A DNA stretch of 63,286 bases, counting the filler, from Octopus bimaculoides (lineage: Eukaryota): assembly GCF_001194135.2 (NCBI RefSeq). It is 8 parts of 8 records of this genome, joined end to end, with 100 filler letters (N's around TTAATTAATTAA, not from the genome) between each part and the next. Parts side by side here need not be neighbours in the genome. Positions count along the whole stretch, not along the records: positions 1 to 24,789 come from NC_068990.1; positions 24,890 to 38,042 come from NC_069009.1; positions 38,143 to 40,962 come from NC_068989.1; positions 41,063 to 43,514 come from NC_069002.1; positions 43,615 to 50,983 come from NC_068987.1; positions 51,084 to 53,972 come from NC_069001.1; positions 54,073 to 57,418 come from NC_068981.1; positions 57,519 to 63,286 come from NC_068999.1. One strand, written 5' to 3'. Shown here piece by piece: positions 18,057 through 58,803 of the stretch (the first letter of the stretch is position 1; each line of letters opens with the position of its first letter). Position numbers and translations under genes: made by a program. Under the pieces are notes generated by a model that worked only from the letters and a program-made list of their open reading frames with translations, had not been told where the DNA came from and ran no database searches.

Positions 18057-18086
18057 CTTTGACGTTTCGAGCCTACGCTCCTCTAC
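18057..18086 (-). ncRNA. Truncated HHR of family P1 (stem II-GAAA-CG-UC-stem I), interrupted by SINE B
   Basis: Minus strand GAGCGTAGGCTCGAAACGTCAAAG; the CUG core half is replaced by SINE B sequence from 18087. Confidence 0.5.
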
Positions 18087-19283
18087 ACTCACAAGGCTTA
18101 GGTGACTCGACGTCATAGTATAAGACACTTGCTCATGGTACCACGTGCTTGACTGAAGCCGAAACTATGAGACTGGGAAGCGATCTTAAGCACACAGCCA
18201 TGCCTGCGCCCAATCCAAAAAGACATCCAAACACCAAGCAGCCGAGCAATCATCAATCATAGCCGTTACTGGCAAACGAGTATGATCTGGTAGCATGTAC
18301 CATGCTTTCGTTAATTGTTTTACTGCTTATGTAGTCGCAAGCAGACGTGGACACGCTAGAAAGCTTCCAGAGTATGACAGCTGGAGGGGCAGGTCGACCT
18401 CAGCACCAAGCTGGTAGTCATTTCCAGATGGGTAAACCAAAGCGACATGAAATTAAGCGGCTTGCTCAAGGAATGGTTGACAGCCAGTTTTAGTGAAAGT
18501 AAACTGCGACAGACACCAGATAGACACTGGAAGTGACGATGGTGATATTCCATAATTCCATTGCTATTATTATAACAACAGACCGATGCGTGAAACGTAA
18601 CATAGGAAACCTATCAATCGAATACGAAACGTAATATCCTTTGCGTTATAATGGGTTAAAGTGTTCTGCTTGCTCGATCAAGTGTCTCTCAATCAGGCAG
18701 CGTCTTCTAGATGAACGCGTTTTTACTACTCCAATCACCCAATTCCCTTAAATGCTACTTAATCCGGTGATATTTTCGACGCTTGTGCTCATATGAAATT
18801 ATGGAGACTATCGACGACACTATGGCGCAATTTACTTCCACTTTAGTCCGGCATTAAATTGCATAGTAACCGAGAAGGTCTAAACCGGCACCCGACTGCT
18901 TCTCTAAACCGGCACCCGACTGCTCAGTAAACTAAAGCAACATGGATTGAAGCGCTTTGCTCAAGATACAAATACGCTGCCCGACCCAGCAACCGATCTC
19001 ACGACTCTATAATCGCGAACCCGACAGCCTAACCACTAAGCCACGCACCTTCACATCCAACCGTTACAATACGCTAACCGTTTATACACCCAATATTCTC
19101 TGACCAGAACGTGATTCAACTTCCAGGAAATCCTTCCTTGTAACCAATTGATAAGCATCAGAATAAAATTAGCCTCAATGGCTTCAATCTCACCGACCCC
19201 GGGTGGGGATTCGTCGTGTAATGTTCCTTGTTCAAGATATGGCTTATAAAATAAGAAATATTAGTCATAATTTGTCATTATTA

Positions 19284-19497
19284 GGGCGGAGAGCTCGCAG
19301 AATCGTTAGTGCCAAGGACGAAATGCTTAGCGGTACTTCACCCGTCGCTACGTTCTAAGATCAAATTCCGCCAAGGTCGACTTTACCTTTCATCCTTTCG
19401 AGGTCGGTAAAATAAGTACCAGTGAAATACTGGATCGCTGTAATCGACTATTCCCCTCCCCCAAAATTTCAGGCCTTGTGCCTAGAGTAGAAAGGGT
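19284..19497 (+). mobile_element. SINE family A, full length
   Basis: Head, GATCAAATTCCGCC box and tail CAGGCCTTGTGCCTAGAGTAGAAAGG. Confidence 0.9.
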
Positions 19498-22079
19498 TAT
19501 TCCACTGTTATTGGTGCTTATGCTTGTCTTTTGTTTTAAAGTTGTGTTGTTTTGCTTTCTGTATAATAAAGTGGTAGGGGTGTGACAATAAGAGTGGTGG
19601 GAGGAGGCTACGAAACGGCTGCAATTGTATTTATAGAGTTAATTCATTAGAAAGATAATGTAATGTGTGTGTGTGTGTGTGTGTGTGTGTGTTCATATCT
19701 TTTATTCTTTTACTTGTTTCAGTCATTAGACTGCGGCCATGCTGGAGCATTGCCTTGTGGAATTTTTGTCAAGTAAATCGTGTCCATTTATTATTCTTGG
19801 AAAGATAGATAGATAGATAGATAGATAGATAGATAGATAGATAGATAGATAGATAGGTAGGTTCATTTACGCTAATACGTACGCTCGCGCTCACGCTTTA
19901 CACAACCATATTCTATGCGAGTGTATACACGCATATATACATAGTCATGTGTGTGCATGTGTATATATATATATGTAGAAATATTATACATGTACTTAAC
20001 AAAACTGTCATACTTGTAAAAATAAATAAAAATAAATAAATAAAATTAGTGCATCTGCACATTGTAAAGTGCATTACGAGTGATAAAGTGCAGAGTGGAT
20101 AATAAACATTGTGTTCAGTTCATCTGCGGCTGCAAGATTTTTCAGTAAAAATAGCTGTAACTGCTGCACCGTGTTAAACACAAGAAGGGAAGACAAAATA
20201 CTACATTCTGTGAAAGGAATGTTTGGCGTGCCGAGTGCAAATGTACTTCTTTCTTTGGGAATATATGCTATGACTTGGCTGACACACACACGCGCACACG
20301 CGCCTTCTCTTTCCCCCTCTCCCTCTCTCTCACAGACTCACAGACTTACACACACATACTCTTTCTGTCTGTCTCTCTCTCTTTTTATATAGAATTTCCA
20401 TCTGTCCACTTCTTTCTTTTATACATTATATATATATTTCTCTGTGCCTTTCTTTCTCCTAGATATTTAGTTCATCTGTCTATCTCTCTCATGTACCTTA
20501 TACAGACTCTCTCTCTCTCTCCCTCTCATATACTATTTCTATCTATCTATCTATATTTCTTTCTTTCTTTCTTTCGTACTATCTGCATTTTTCTCTATCT
20601 ATCTATCCACCTTTCTTTCTTTCTTTCTTTCTTTCTTTCTTACTATCTGTTTGCCTTTTTATCTATCTGTCTATCTATCTATCTATCTATCTATCTATCT
20701 ATCTATCTATCTATCTATCTATCTATCTACATTCATACACTCTATACCTGTCTCTCACATATCTCTATACCTCTCACTACACCCATATCAATCAATCACT
20801 CAATCTCTCTATATTCTGTTAGTTTGTCTCTCTCTCTCTCTTTCTCCCCCTCCTCCTCAGTGTCTGTATGTCGTTGTCATGCAATGCACGGATGTTTTTG
20901 CTTTTCTTCGTTTATTTATTTTAGCTCCCTGGTTCAGTTTGTCACCATGCTCAAGGCCACGCTGGAGCAACGCCAGCGCGCGCGTCTGTACTGGCTGTGT
21001 ATATTGTATAATATATATTTATATAGATACAATGATTGTTTGGCTGTGCGTTCACTCGTATACACACACACACACACATACATAGCCGTATACACACACA
21101 CACACATACATAGCCGTCCATTCACACACTTTCACAGTCAATATTTACTCTTCCGAACTAGACAGACAGACAGACAGACAGACAGAAAGAAAGAAAGAAA
21201 GAAAGAAAGAAAGAATGAAAGAAAGAGAGAAAGAAAGAAAGAAAGAGAGAGAGAAAGAAAGAGAAAGAAAGAAAGAAAGAAAGAGCATGAAAGAGAGAGA
21301 GAAAGAGACTTTGTAAATGAGCAGGTTACTTACAAAACGTGTGTGTGCATGTATCTGCGCTTGTGTGTGTGTGTGTGAGTATGTGTGTGTGTGTGTGAGT
21401 GTGTGTGTGTGTGTGTGTGTATATTGAATAGGAGAGATTCATGAAACACAGTTCAAGGGGTCGAGAAAAATCCCAAAAGGATTCTATGCGATTTTAAAGA
21501 TGGAAGAAGTAGTGAGCAGATATATAGATCAGATATAATGTTTTAGCATACATACATACATACAAATACTCACAGAGGAGAGTATACACACCCATTTACA
21601 CAGACACGTGAATACGTAAGCGCACCAAACGCTCACAAATATATACACTCAAAGATCAGAGCCTATTTGTCTAGAATCGCTAGGAAATGCGAACAAAATA
21701 CAAATACGTATACACACACACAAGCAATATATGTGTGTGTGTGTGTGTGTGTAAGAGAGAGGGGGGGGGGAGATTGGAAAACAATTTTGGTATTATTCAC
21801 GTATTCCATTTGCAAAATTGTACGTGAAAGAGAAACATTGTTAGACATTATTTCAAATAGAATATGTCCAACTTGTTTCCCCGACGTGGGCAAGTTTGTA
21901 ACTCCTGTTAGCAAATGAAACACGTGTAAAGGTGAAGGAAAAATACCAAAATTTCTTACACTACAGAAAATATCTTCCAGTAATTTTTCAATTCTTATGC
22001 ATACCTCACACCAATATAACATCCAGATACAATTTTGGAGTACTGGAATAAGCTGGTGTACTTTAAGAGGACACAGCTT

Positions 22080-22130
22080 GAGTCTGACGAGTTGCTAAGC
22101 GATTACCAAGTACGAAATCAAAGGTCACTC
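22080..22130 (+). ncRNA. Type I hammerhead ribozyme with intact core
   Basis: GAGT-CTGACGA-GT.TGCTAA(GCGA)TTACCA.AGTAC-GAAA-TC(AAA)GG-TC|ACTC: stem I GAGT/ACTC, GNRA-capped stem II, GUC cleavage site after 22126. Confidence 0.7.
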
Positions 22131-57140: not shown

Positions 57141-58629
57141 ACTTCATTTATCTATTTATAGTTTTATATGGTTGTTAGTATTTGTGTGATGTAGTGTATC
57201 TCTTGAGAGTGGTATGCGTGTGTGTGCCTGCATGTATAAGTCCATATGTTAGTGTGTGTGTGTGCGTATGGAGGGTTCTGCGTGAGAAATGGAGACGGTA
57301 TGTTTGGCACCCATTCCACACTGTTCTCACGTTTTGTATATATATGTATATTGTGTGTGTGTGTGTGTGTGCGTGTGCGCGTGCGTGCGTGTGTATATAT
57401 ATATATATATATATATATNNNNNNNNNNNNNNNNNNNNNNNNNNNNNNNNNNNNNNNNNNNNTTAATTAATTAANNNNNNNNNNNNNNNNNNNNNNNNNN
57501 NNNNNNNNNNNNNNNNNNATATATATATATATATATATATATATATATAACATGTGTATATATATATATATTTATATATACGTTATATATCATATCTATA
57601 CACATTTGTATATATATATATATATTACATGTGTATCATGTATATATGTATATATATATATATATTTATGTGTACATGTCAATGTCTGTATGCGTATGTG
57701 TTCATGTGGGCATGTGCTGAATATATATGAATGTGCGTGTATGAATGTGTTTTACTTTGACTGACTTCATAAACCTCTTAAGAGTCTATCGTGCGAGAAC
57801 TCAATGGTAAACGTAGGTAAAGTCCATTACTGAAAACTAATATATATTACAGTAAAATATGTATTGTAGTAATGGCTGCAATTATCTTTCTTAGAAAATG
57901 TATACAGAAACATATTCTCACAAAGTCACATGTCCTCAAAAATACATACCGTCTCGTTCAGGCACATACAGACATGCACCCAAACGGCTACACACACACA
58001 CTCGTGCACACTCGTATACAGACAAGCGTATATACGCATATATAAATATCTGTATATTTCTCTATCTACCTATAACGCTGCCCATCTATCTATCTATCTA
58101 TCTATTTATCTATCTATCTATCTATCTATATATCTATCTATCTATCTATCTATCTATCTATAGTAGATAGATATACCTACTTACCTACACAGTTACATAC
58201 TCTTCTATTTATCTGTATGTCTATCTATCGTTCTATCTCTACAGGCATAGACACACGTACACACACACACACACACACACACACACACACACAAACACAC
58301 ACACACTCACGCACACACAAGTAAATGAAATTTAACCATGGTTTTCTGTTTGTTTTGATAATTTTCAGTTTTACATTTCTTCAAAAATTACATTTCATGC
58401 TAACTCACATGTTATGATACATCTTATATCATGATATCTCATATAGTAAAACTGTAAAATTATGAGAAATACAAAAATACAACGTAAAATCTAAAGCGTG
58501 TTGGAATTTAATTTACTTATATATTTACCTGTTGACAATCAATTGATCTTTGTTTTGTCAAATAAACACACGCACTATATATTCGTTCTTCACTTTTTTG
58601 GAACAGCTCTTATTCTTACTCATGTTCAT

Positions 58630-58675
58630 TGTCCGGAAATCTTTCGTCACACATCTGTAACCTCTTTAGTGACAC
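58630..58675 (-). ncRNA. Hammerhead copy in the left arm, core G5 mutated
   Basis: TGTCA-CTAAAGA-G-GTTACA(GATG)TGTGAC-GAAA-GATT-TC|CGGACA. Confidence 0.55.
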
Positions 58676-58758
58676 TTTCCGCCTCCATGTGTGCTCTTGC
58701 TCCACTTATTTCATTCATATGAAATAAGTGGAACAAGAATAGACACGAATACGGAAAG

Positions 58759-58803
58759 TGTCGCTGAAGAGATTACAGATGTGTGACGAAAGATTTCCGG
58801 ACA
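58759..58803 (+). ncRNA. Hammerhead copy in the right arm, core intact
   Basis: TGTCG-CTGAAGA-G-ATTACA(GATG)TGTGAC-GAAA-GATT-TC|CGGACA. Confidence 0.62.

What the first reader, a model, noticed from the sequence alone, without database searches (positions are those of the whole stretch)
18057..58803. Synthesis: a hidden layer of at least seven unrelated hammerhead-bearing repeat contexts in one 63-kb window
Seen: 12 HHR motifs (18057, 22080, 27665, 35137, 37340, 39189, 41311, 46963, 50348, 51826, 58630, 58759). All are minimal type I; several have an extra base after A9 and short or palindromic stem III (ACGU, ACAUGU, ACGAUCGU); many lie beside (TA)n. Only two belong to an element with an RT. 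Established: PLE pLTRs and metazoan retrozymes use such HHRs. Inference: an ecosystem of non-autonomous solo and foldback ribozyme elements mobilised by PLE RT. Inside introns they could cleave pre-mRNA or supply dsRNA for editing. Extrapolated density would be very high, but that needs computing.
Basis: partly seen in the sequence, partly recalled or inferred. Interest (0 to 1): 0.75.

Follow-up and report, generated by a model that had tools for sequence, protein, structure and literature searches.

The report
LINE targeting a hammerhead retrozyme
Eleven of the twelve ribozyme-like motifs are mostly decayed copies of six repeat families of a well-known kind of jumping DNA, but at one of them an unrelated jumping gene (a LINE) has inserted at the same exact spot in about two-thirds of its copies genome-wide, likely borrowing a predicted small-RNA-type promoter of that repeat.

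Summary
The window is a pack of eight separate stretches. Eleven of 12 motifs belong to six repeat families with a hammerhead consensus; 22080 is single-copy and probably chance. Only four copies keep a full core. Four families behave as Penelope-like (PLE) 3' ends, and two of them join RT/GIY-YIG remnants, so the 58630/58759 foldback is an ordinary inverted PLE stump. Two are ~350-nt non-LTR retrozyme units sharing one layout. Solo, foldback, palindromic-stem and extra-base motifs are all described (PMC4209133). A strict pattern gives 13,808 genome hits against 811 control hits.

Unexpected: at 41300 an L1/Tx1-type LINE ends exactly at the retrozyme's stem I. 18 of 27 readable LINE 3' ends and 16 of 23 5' ends abut this site, with 14-16-bp duplications in 7 of 10 complete loci and near-identical LINEs in divergent targets. 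The site lies 66 nt behind a motif found upstream of this genome's U1/U2 genes. I found no paper on it; the scan noted the same in three windows of other genomes. Cleavage, circles, promoter use and intron effects are untested. Verdict: known background, one new variant.

The parts
18057..18083 (-). F1 half-hammerhead (stem II, GAAA, ACGU stem III, 3' arm); 5' core and stem I missing
   Evidence: matches only 33 nt of the family query
21891..22080 (+).
22080..22130 (+). Single-copy hammerhead-like motif with weak stem II; probably chance
27577..27763 (-). F1 3'-end stump on (TA)n; hammerhead 27665-27700 with U6 core
34949..35127 (-). Inverted, truncated copy of the F7 unit (76% identity), no ribozyme
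35124..35360 (+). F7 retrozyme-type unit (350-360 nt monomer); hammerhead 35137-35185, core intact
37249..37480 (-). F1 3'-end stump on (TA)n; hammerhead 37340-37374, U6 core, G10.1>A
39107..39254 (-). Old F1 stump; hammerhead 39189-39224 with G12>A
41063..41299 (+). 3' end of an L1/Tx1-type LINE, no poly(A) tail; 100% identical over 228 nt to two other copies, one in another F5 unit and one off target
41300..41315 (+). Target sequence duplicated at complete insertions (14-16 bp), ending within the 5' strand of stem I
41300..41424 (+). F5 retrozyme unit, first 125 nt of a 349-nt monomer; hammerhead 41311-41353, 6-bp stem I, ACAUGU stem III, C10.1-A11.1 mismatch
46873..47506 (-). Inverted pseudo-LTR of the F3 PLE; hammerhead 46963-47014 with G12>A
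47763..49985 (+). Broken PLE coding region: RT followed by C-terminal GIY-YIG-type endonuclease, Hydra-like by motif layout (inference)
49837..50501 (+). 3' pseudo-LTR of the F3 PLE; hammerhead 50348-50399 with G12>A and A15.1>U
51720..51925 (-). F2 3'-end stump on (TA)n; hammerhead 51826-51860, core intact, stems decayed
58553..58714 (-). Inverted truncated copy of the F4 PLE end; hammerhead 58630-58674 with G5>A
58717..58915 (+). F4 PLE 3' end; hammerhead 58759-58803; longer copies elsewhere run into endonuclease and RT remnants

Best explanation
Eleven motifs are the ribozyme-bearing ends of six repeat families, likely left by Penelope-type reverse transcription, and one of them, a 349-nt tandem retrozyme, is the fixed insertion site of a low-copy L1/Tx1-type LINE that likely uses the retrozyme's predicted snRNA-type promoter. 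Shown: family membership, fixed 3' ends with ragged 5' ends, inverted partners, RT/endonuclease links for F3 and F4, tandem 349-nt units for F5, LINE domains, junction counts, target duplications, independent insertions, and a motif shared with U1/U2 upstream regions at matching spacing. Inferred: PLE RT mobilises F1, F2, F5 and F7; the LINE's endonuclease nicks the unit 17 nt before the catalytic core, recognising a loose sequence and perhaps aided by promoter-bound factors; transcription starts about 25 nt before the core, runs through the duplicated target into the LINE, and reads on into the intact hammerhead behind it. Most dispersed copies are decayed and probably inert.
For: Families and structure; F7 pairs 87.5% standard, covariation 0.282 with 2 of 500 shuffles as high. 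PLE links. Tandem F5: a trimer and dimers among 40 scored candidates. Inverted partners within 500 bp: F5 11 of 30, F7 14 of 29, F4 6 of 30 loci. LINE: zf-CCHC, Exo_endo_phos, RVT_1, zf-RVT, best PDB match human L1 ORF2. With queries holding no retrozyme sequence, 18 of 27 readable 3' ends abut the F5 site and 2 more lie in F7-like units; 16 of 23 5' ends follow F5. 13 occupied against 112 empty exact sites in 2.34 Gb. Duplications of 14-16 bp at 7 of 10 loci with both ends, locus-specific variants on both sides. LINE ends 97-100% alike sit in targets 59-92% alike or off target. Motif at -55 to -59 in 7 of 10 U1 and 7 of 15 U2 loci, at -83 from C3 in 8 of 21 F5 and 4 of 22 F7 cores; duplication starts 66 nt behind it in F5 and 65 nt in an F7-like unit of different sequence. 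One off-target full-length copy carries 7 extra retrozyme-derived nt at its 5' end (L327). Newt satellite 2 is reported to use an snRNA promoter (passage in PMC2220036).
Against: 7 of 27 3' ends are off target and one lies downstream of an F7-like hammerhead, which points to plain sequence preference. Three of 10 complete loci lack a clean duplication. Five of the 18 on-target ends are on small unplaced contigs and may be haplotype duplicates; 11 weaker matches of each search were not fetched. The promoter motif is short: a U1/U2 matrix ranks it best in F5 (6 of 500 shuffles as high) but not in one diverged F7 copy (77 of 500), and a one-mismatch version also recurs at -39 in 10 of 26 F4 cores. 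No RT partner was found for F1, F2, F5 or F7. In three RNA runs (about 6% read) the F5 unit drew 251-328 reads on both strands with no pile-up at the cleavage site or the predicted start. Young F5 has a C10.1-A11.1 mismatch. Tx1-clade placement was not tested by phylogeny.
Confidence: 0.7

Rival explanations
1. The LINE targets the retrozyme by endonuclease sequence preference alone, as a harmless multicopy haven, and has its own promoter; the U1/U2-like motif is incidental.
For: Several off-target sites begin with letters like the F5 target; one insertion lies downstream of an F7-like hammerhead (L322); known Tx1 targets include non-transcribed repeats (PMC4494074 passages); motif test failed on one F7 copy.
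Against: Same spacing from the motif (65 and 66 nt) in two units of unlike target sequence; retrozyme-derived letters at the 5' end of an off-target full-length copy.
Confidence: 0.3
2. The LINE uses the flanking hammerheads to cut its RNA out of a retrozyme co-transcript, as R2 does with its ribozyme in rRNA, which would explain the missing poly(A) tail.
For: The duplication leaves an intact hammerhead about 48 nt behind the LINE end; no poly(A) at any of 27 readable ends; L216 has same-strand hammerheads on both sides; a contig of one probable RNA run spans the LINE-retrozyme junction (weak).
Against: Off-target copies carry no transduced ribozyme stub; most complete loci lack an upstream same-strand hammerhead; a cyclic-phosphate end needs no role in priming; no read ends at the site.
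Confidence: 0.2
3. One ancient LINE-in-retrozyme chimera was amplified as a unit, so the junction is inherited, not targeted.
For: The junction position is nearly constant.
Against: Near-identical LINE ends in targets 59-92% alike; clean 16-bp duplications at 5'-truncated copies; off-target copies of the same subfamily.
Confidence: 0.04
4. One reading: dispersed solo and foldback hammerheads form an active layer that cleaves host pre-mRNA or feeds editing.
For: At least about 17,000 strict-pattern motifs; inverted pairs are frequent; unit reads occur on both strands in RNA runs.
Against: 8 of 12 window motifs lack a canonical core or are chance; single minimal motifs showed no cleavage in PMC4209133; 8 of 9 Xenopus dimers did not cleave in 10.64898/2026.07.22.740005.
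Confidence: 0.08

Closest known systems
Minimal hammerheads of metazoan Penelope-like elements (Cervera and de la Pena 2014, PMC4209133)
   Same: Short stem I, extra base between 9 and 10.1, palindromic stem III, mostly single motifs, opposite-strand pairs, thousands per genome (F1-F4).
   Different: F1 has U fixed at position 6 (none of the first 100 listed of 3,600 exact copies has A6), so the CUGANGA descriptor misses it; no cephalopod in the parts read.
EN+ PLEs, Hydra clade and Neptune/Nematis-like clades (Craig et al. 2021, PMC8557442)
   Same: RT plus C-terminal GIY-YIG, pseudo-LTRs, 5' truncation, inverted 5' copy, (TA)n targets (F3, F4).
   Different: Clades assigned from motif layout only; no autonomous partner found for F1 and F2.
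Metazoan non-LTR retrozymes (PMC7229834; Li, Clavereau, Pollet 2026, 10.64898/2026.07.22.740005); newt satellite 2
   Same: ~350-nt ORF-less units, type I hammerhead with 6-bp stem I, monomers to trimers; snRNA-type promoter reported for newt satellite 2 (via PMC2220036).
   Different: Circles and cleavage not shown here; mostly permuted monomers with inverted partners; F5 is occupied by a LINE at about 10% of exact sites.
Target-specific Tx1-clade LINEs: Tx1L in Tx1D, Keno in U2, Tx1-Mar in Mariner-N4, satellite-targeting families (Kojima 2015, PMC4494074)
   Same: Two-ORF APE LINE, one fixed site in a multicopy element, ~16-bp duplication, tandem insertions at one site.
   Different: Target is a ribozyme retroelement, next to the catalytic core and just behind a predicted snRNA-type start; no poly(A) tail; I did not see what the 'Sat' targets in that paper's figure are.
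R2 elements in 28S rDNA (discussed in PMC4494074)
   Same: Likely dependence on the target's promoter; ribozyme next to the element.
   Different: APE rather than REL endonuclease; the ribozyme belongs to the target and lies 3' of the element.

Membership tests
PLE minimal hammerhead (F1-F4) | Type I layout with conserved CUGANGA and GAAA core | tested here: met
   Met by family majority in F2, F3, F4; see next row for F1
PLE minimal hammerhead (F1) | A at core position 6 | tested here: not met
   U6 in all first 100 listed of 3,600 exact copies; about a tenth also U4>A
PLE minimal hammerhead (F1-F4) | Extra base after A9, G10.1-C11.1, palindromic stem III | tested here: met
   Extra base in F1, F2, F4, not F3; G-C closing and self-complementary stem III in all four majorities
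PLE minimal hammerhead (F1-F4) | Self-cleavage as a dimer | not testable with these tools
   needs in vitro transcription
EN+ Penelope-like element (F3, F4) | RT followed by GIY-YIG-type endonuclease, same strand as the hammerhead | tested here: met
   F3 in window; F4 in L101, L113, L114, L116; no Pfam match for the window RT
EN+ Penelope-like element (F1, F2) | Linked RT/endonuclease ORF | tested here: inconclusive
   F1 extends about 1.3 kb as non-coding sequence, no ORF in 25 loci; none in 20 F2 loci within 1.5 kb
EN+ Penelope-like element | Fixed 3' end, 5' truncation, inverted copy, microsatellite target | tested here: met
   inversion rare in F1 (1/30) and F2 (0/20)
Non-LTR retrozyme (F5, F7) | ORF-less unit of 150-400 nt in tandem with a hammerhead in each unit | tested here: met
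   F5 349 nt, trimer L255; F7 350-360 nt, dimer L049
Non-LTR retrozyme (F5, F7) | Abundant monomer and circular RNA | tested here: inconclusive
   F5 only: low counts, both strands, no joints or ends at the site in three long-read-pair RNA runs of unknown selection
Non-LTR retrozyme (F5, F7) | Self-cleavage | not testable with these tools
   F5 folds as drawn but closes stem II with C-A
Target-specific Tx1-clade LINE | ORF1 with zinc knuckle; ORF2 APE-RT-zinc finger | tested here: met
   (zf-CCHC and Exo_endo_phos below curated cut-off)
Target-specific Tx1-clade LINE | One target in more than 20% of flanks (criterion of PMC4494074) | tested here: met
   18 of 27 and 16 of 23
Target-specific Tx1-clade LINE | Target-site duplication | tested here: met
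   14-16 bp at 7 of 10 loci
Target-specific Tx1-clade LINE | RT groups with Tx1 rather than other L1-group clades | not tested
   no named Tx1 protein came from the tools
snRNA-type Pol II promoter (F5, F7) | Proximal element 55-60 nt before the start, as in this genome's U1/U2 genes | tested here: inconclusive
   motif and spacing to an ATC fit; start site not mapped; matrix test passed for F5, failed for one F7 copy

The most novel reading that the evidence does not exclude
A three-level parasite chain: PLE RT spreads a ribozyme retrozyme, the retrozyme carries an snRNA-type promoter, and a tail-less Tx1-type LINE finds that promoter by position, lands between it and the catalytic core, and so gains both its transcription start and a downstream hammerhead that forms its RNA 3' end (or a LINE-sized circle when flanked by two).
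Probability: 0.2. Interest if true: 0.78.

Novelty: new variant of a known kind. Interest (0 to 1): 0.5.

Why it matters
The hammerhead census itself extends known biology to one more genome. The LINE matters more: it is a site-specific APE retrotransposon whose target is a ribozyme retroelement, with a natural series of on-target, related-target and off-target sites that lets one separate sequence recognition from promoter tethering. The shared U1/U2-type motif offers a testable answer to how metazoan retrozymes are transcribed, a point left open in the parts of PMC7229834 that I read. F1 shows that a family with a non-canonical core (U6) reached thousands of copies, which bears on whether PLE hammerheads need to cleave at all.

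Tried and rejected
Rfam scan: no hammerhead model matched. First strict descriptor found 22080 and 27696 only. Pfam and NCBIfam gave nothing for the window PLE. Walking F1 upstream found no ORF. Endonuclease remnants near F1, F5 and F7 loci (L011, L014, L065, L087, L056) differ in orientation or distance and were taken as unrelated insertions. 22080 as a seventh family: rejected, single copy. F7 as a terminal-inverted-repeat MITE: rejected, it is a unit plus inverted truncated copy. F4 as a foldback class: rejected. CTGANGA sites at 11682, 16521 and 59711 do not close as hammerheads. Amplified chimera: rejected. Run search: no RNA holder listed on record; this is no evidence on expression. Naming the LINE's clade by database names failed. 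Coats et al. 1994 could not be read. Distances from each window site to (TA)n were not computed; only family-level counts are given. Strand bias in introns and editing were not tested: no annotation, and no matched DNA for the RNA runs.

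
Full report
Setting. The window is a pack of eight stretches from a 2.34-Gb genome, G000; the six stretches that I located lie on six contigs. The microsatellite-rich repeat landscape looks like an octopus (my inference; earlier scan notes say the same). Density cannot be read from this pack as from one region.

Checking the motifs. 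All 12 coordinates hold the described letters. Searches of G000 sort eleven into six families: F1 (18057, 27665, 37340, 39189), F2 (51826), F3 (46963, 50348), F4 (58630, 58759), F5 (41311), F7 (35137) (each search scores only the 40 best candidates). The twelfth, 22080, has one match, itself, begins where a neighbouring repeat's homology ends and has a weak stem II: probably chance. Most window copies are damaged against their family: 18057 lacks stem I and half the core, 39189, 46963 and 50348 have G12>A, 58630 has G5>A, F1 has U6 throughout; four keep the canonical core (35137, 41311, 51826, 58759). A relaxed descriptor gives 4 hits against 0.35 +/- 0.59 in 100 shuffles but recovers only 4 of the 12; Rfam gives none. 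For 19 F7 copies the drawn structure has 87.5% standard pairs and a covariation score reached by 2 of 500 shuffles, while the count of doubly changed pairs is not above shuffles (160 of 500).

Genome-wide number. CTGANGA-N8-26-GAAACGT occurs 13,808 times against 811 for the reversed pattern and 472 with the first box complemented; most of the first 100 listed belong to a family absent from the window. Exact family patterns add F1 3,600, F5 775, F7 34. That is at least about 17,000, one per 135 kb, in the range published for Xenopus (9,000) and below axolotl (up to 120,000) (PMC4209133; section title in PMC7229834).

PLE ends. F3 flanks a broken RT plus C-terminal GIY-YIG-type frame, with a direct 3' repeat and an inverted 5' copy; it is 46% identical to a PF26215-bearing protein; Hydra-like by motif layout (inference from PMC8557442). 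Longer F4 copies run, on the same strand, into endonuclease and RT remnants 0.7-1 kb upstream (L101, L113, L114, L116), and 6 of 30 have an inverted partner: the 58630/58759 foldback is the inverted 5'-truncated copy described for PLEs. F1 and F2 have a fixed 3' end on (TA)n (25 of 30, 11 of 20; background 7%) and ragged 5' ends; I found no ORF for them. F1's U6 is fixed; changes at this position lower activity (A6C passage in PMC3088659), so F1 may have spread without efficient cleavage (inference).

Retrozymes. F5 is a 349-nt ORF-less unit seen as monomers, dimers and a trimer; F7 is a 350-360-nt unit with one dimer. Both often have inverted truncated partners (11 of 30, 14 of 29), the PLE signature, which supports but does not show PLE mobilisation. 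They do not align significantly yet share a layout, seen also in units at L308, L316 and L325.

The LINE. The 237 nt before the window's F5 copy are the 3' end of a 5.2-5.8-kb two-ORF element with zf-CCHC, Exo_endo_phos, RVT_1 and zf-RVT matches and human L1 ORF2 as best solved relative; Tx1 is my inference. A query without retrozyme sequence gave 41 matches; 30 loci were fetched, 29 distinct, 2 in gaps. Of 27 readable ends, 18 (the window's own included, 5 on small contigs) abut F5 17 or so nt before C3, 2 lie in F7-like units, 7 elsewhere; none has poly(A). A 5' query gave 41 matches, 30 fetched, 23 reaching the 5' end: 16 follow F5, one more only its last 30 nt, 6 do not, two of these following related units. 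Exact patterns count 13 occupied and 112 empty sites. Of 10 loci with both ends, 7 show 14-16-bp duplications with 0-2 mismatches, some with locus-specific variants on both sides; 3 do not. LINE ends 97-100% alike sit in targets 59-92% alike or off target, so insertions are independent.

Promoter lead. Earlier scan notes on other genomes, read after I had the junction counts, proposed that such LINEs land at an snRNA-type start. I tested it. 7 of 10 U1 and 7 of 15 U2 loci have ATCAGTG-like letters 55-59 nt before +1. The same letters stand 83 nt before C3 in 8 of 21 F5 and 4 of 22 F7 cores, many others being truncated there; F1-F3 show no fixed position, F4 shows a one-mismatch site at -39 in 10 of 26. 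U2 spacing puts the start on an ATC 24-25 nt before C3 in both families, 7-8 nt before the F5 duplication. In L325, a unit of different target sequence, the duplication starts 65 nt behind the motif, against 66 in F5. An off-target full-length copy has 7 retrozyme-derived nt beyond its 8-bp duplication (L327), as expected if the RNA began in the retrozyme. Against: the matrix test passed for F5 (6 of 500) and failed for a diverged F7 copy (77 of 500), and one insertion lies downstream of a hammerhead.

RNA. Three raw RNA runs of the same species label, about 6% read, gave 251-328 reads on the F5 trimer and 366-497 on L070, on both strands, mostly 85-95% alike, with no joints and no pile-up at the cleavage site or predicted start. 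Library selection is unknown, so small circles could be lost. One contig of a probable RNA run crosses the LINE-retrozyme junction; weak.

Mechanism. Shown: families, architecture, junctions, duplications, motif spacing. Inferred: PLE target-primed reverse transcription leaves 3' stumps and inversions; retrozyme units are transcribed from an internal snRNA-type element; the LINE nicks just behind that start, is transcribed from it, and keeps an intact hammerhead 48 nt behind its tail-less end, whose use is untested.

Literature seen. PMC4209133: parts 1-2 of 4. 10.64898/2026.07.22.740005: parts 1-3 of 5, supplements not seen. PMC7229834: passages and Discussion. PMC8557442: passages. PMC4494074: passages and section 20; its figure and supplements, which list satellite targets, not seen and may bear on novelty. 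PMC2220036, PMC13282606, PMC3088659: passages; the octopus annotation lists L1-Tx1 and Penelope families but has no occurrence of ribozyme, hammerhead or retrozyme. Coats et al. 1994: not seen, cited through PMC2220036. Searches that found no report of a LINE targeting a hammerhead repeat; Repbase and most subscription journals are outside the library. Hammerhead numbering and the R2 analogy beyond the cited passage are recalled.

Verdict. The finding as written is a real but known kind of landscape with one false site. The site-specific LINE is solid as an observation and a new variant of a known kind; promoter borrowing is likely but unproven. Interest 0.5.

Noticed in passing
window 21891-22080; L126, L130, L131, L133, L136: A further repeat family (F8) with a hammerhead-like motif whose stem II is about 70 nt long and a palindromic stem III; the window holds only its 3' half.
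   Followed up: partly
G000 genome-wide: The commonest canonical hammerhead family, with a 21-nt stem II region, is absent from the window; often in opposite-strand pairs 200-400 bp apart.
   Followed up: no
F1, window 27665, 37340, 39189: Core fixed at CUGUUGA, about a tenth CAGUUGA, in the first 100 listed of 3,600 exact copies; invisible to standard descriptors.
   Followed up: partly
L308, L315, L316, L317 (LINE 5' junctions): Other subfamilies of the LINE follow other retrozyme-like units with the same upstream motif, suggesting one subfamily per target.
   Followed up: partly
L202, L232, L239, L070: Tandem LINE insertions at one target site, and a LINE-unit-LINE alternation.
   Followed up: no
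L216: A complete LINE bracketed by two same-strand hammerheads.
   Followed up: partly
L241, L243, L245, L252 (LINE 5' end): One LINE subfamily begins with 8 of 9 nt complementary to the hammerhead core and start of stem II; other subfamilies do not, so it may be chance.
   Followed up: no
L298-L307, L283-L290: U1 genes cluster on C18 and fall into two promoter types; U1 and U2 share a 7-nt upstream motif at -55 to -59.
   Followed up: partly
window 28589-29032 and 42500-42913: Decayed LINE ORF2-like fragments by eye; no Pfam match.
   Followed up: no
window 33765-33834 and 51441-51480: Short extra F2 and F1 3' fragments without a hammerhead.
   Followed up: no
L148:1894-2356: An open frame with a signal-like start and an amidation-type GFGKR motif, possibly a neuropeptide precursor exon, next to an F2 copy.
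   Followed up: no
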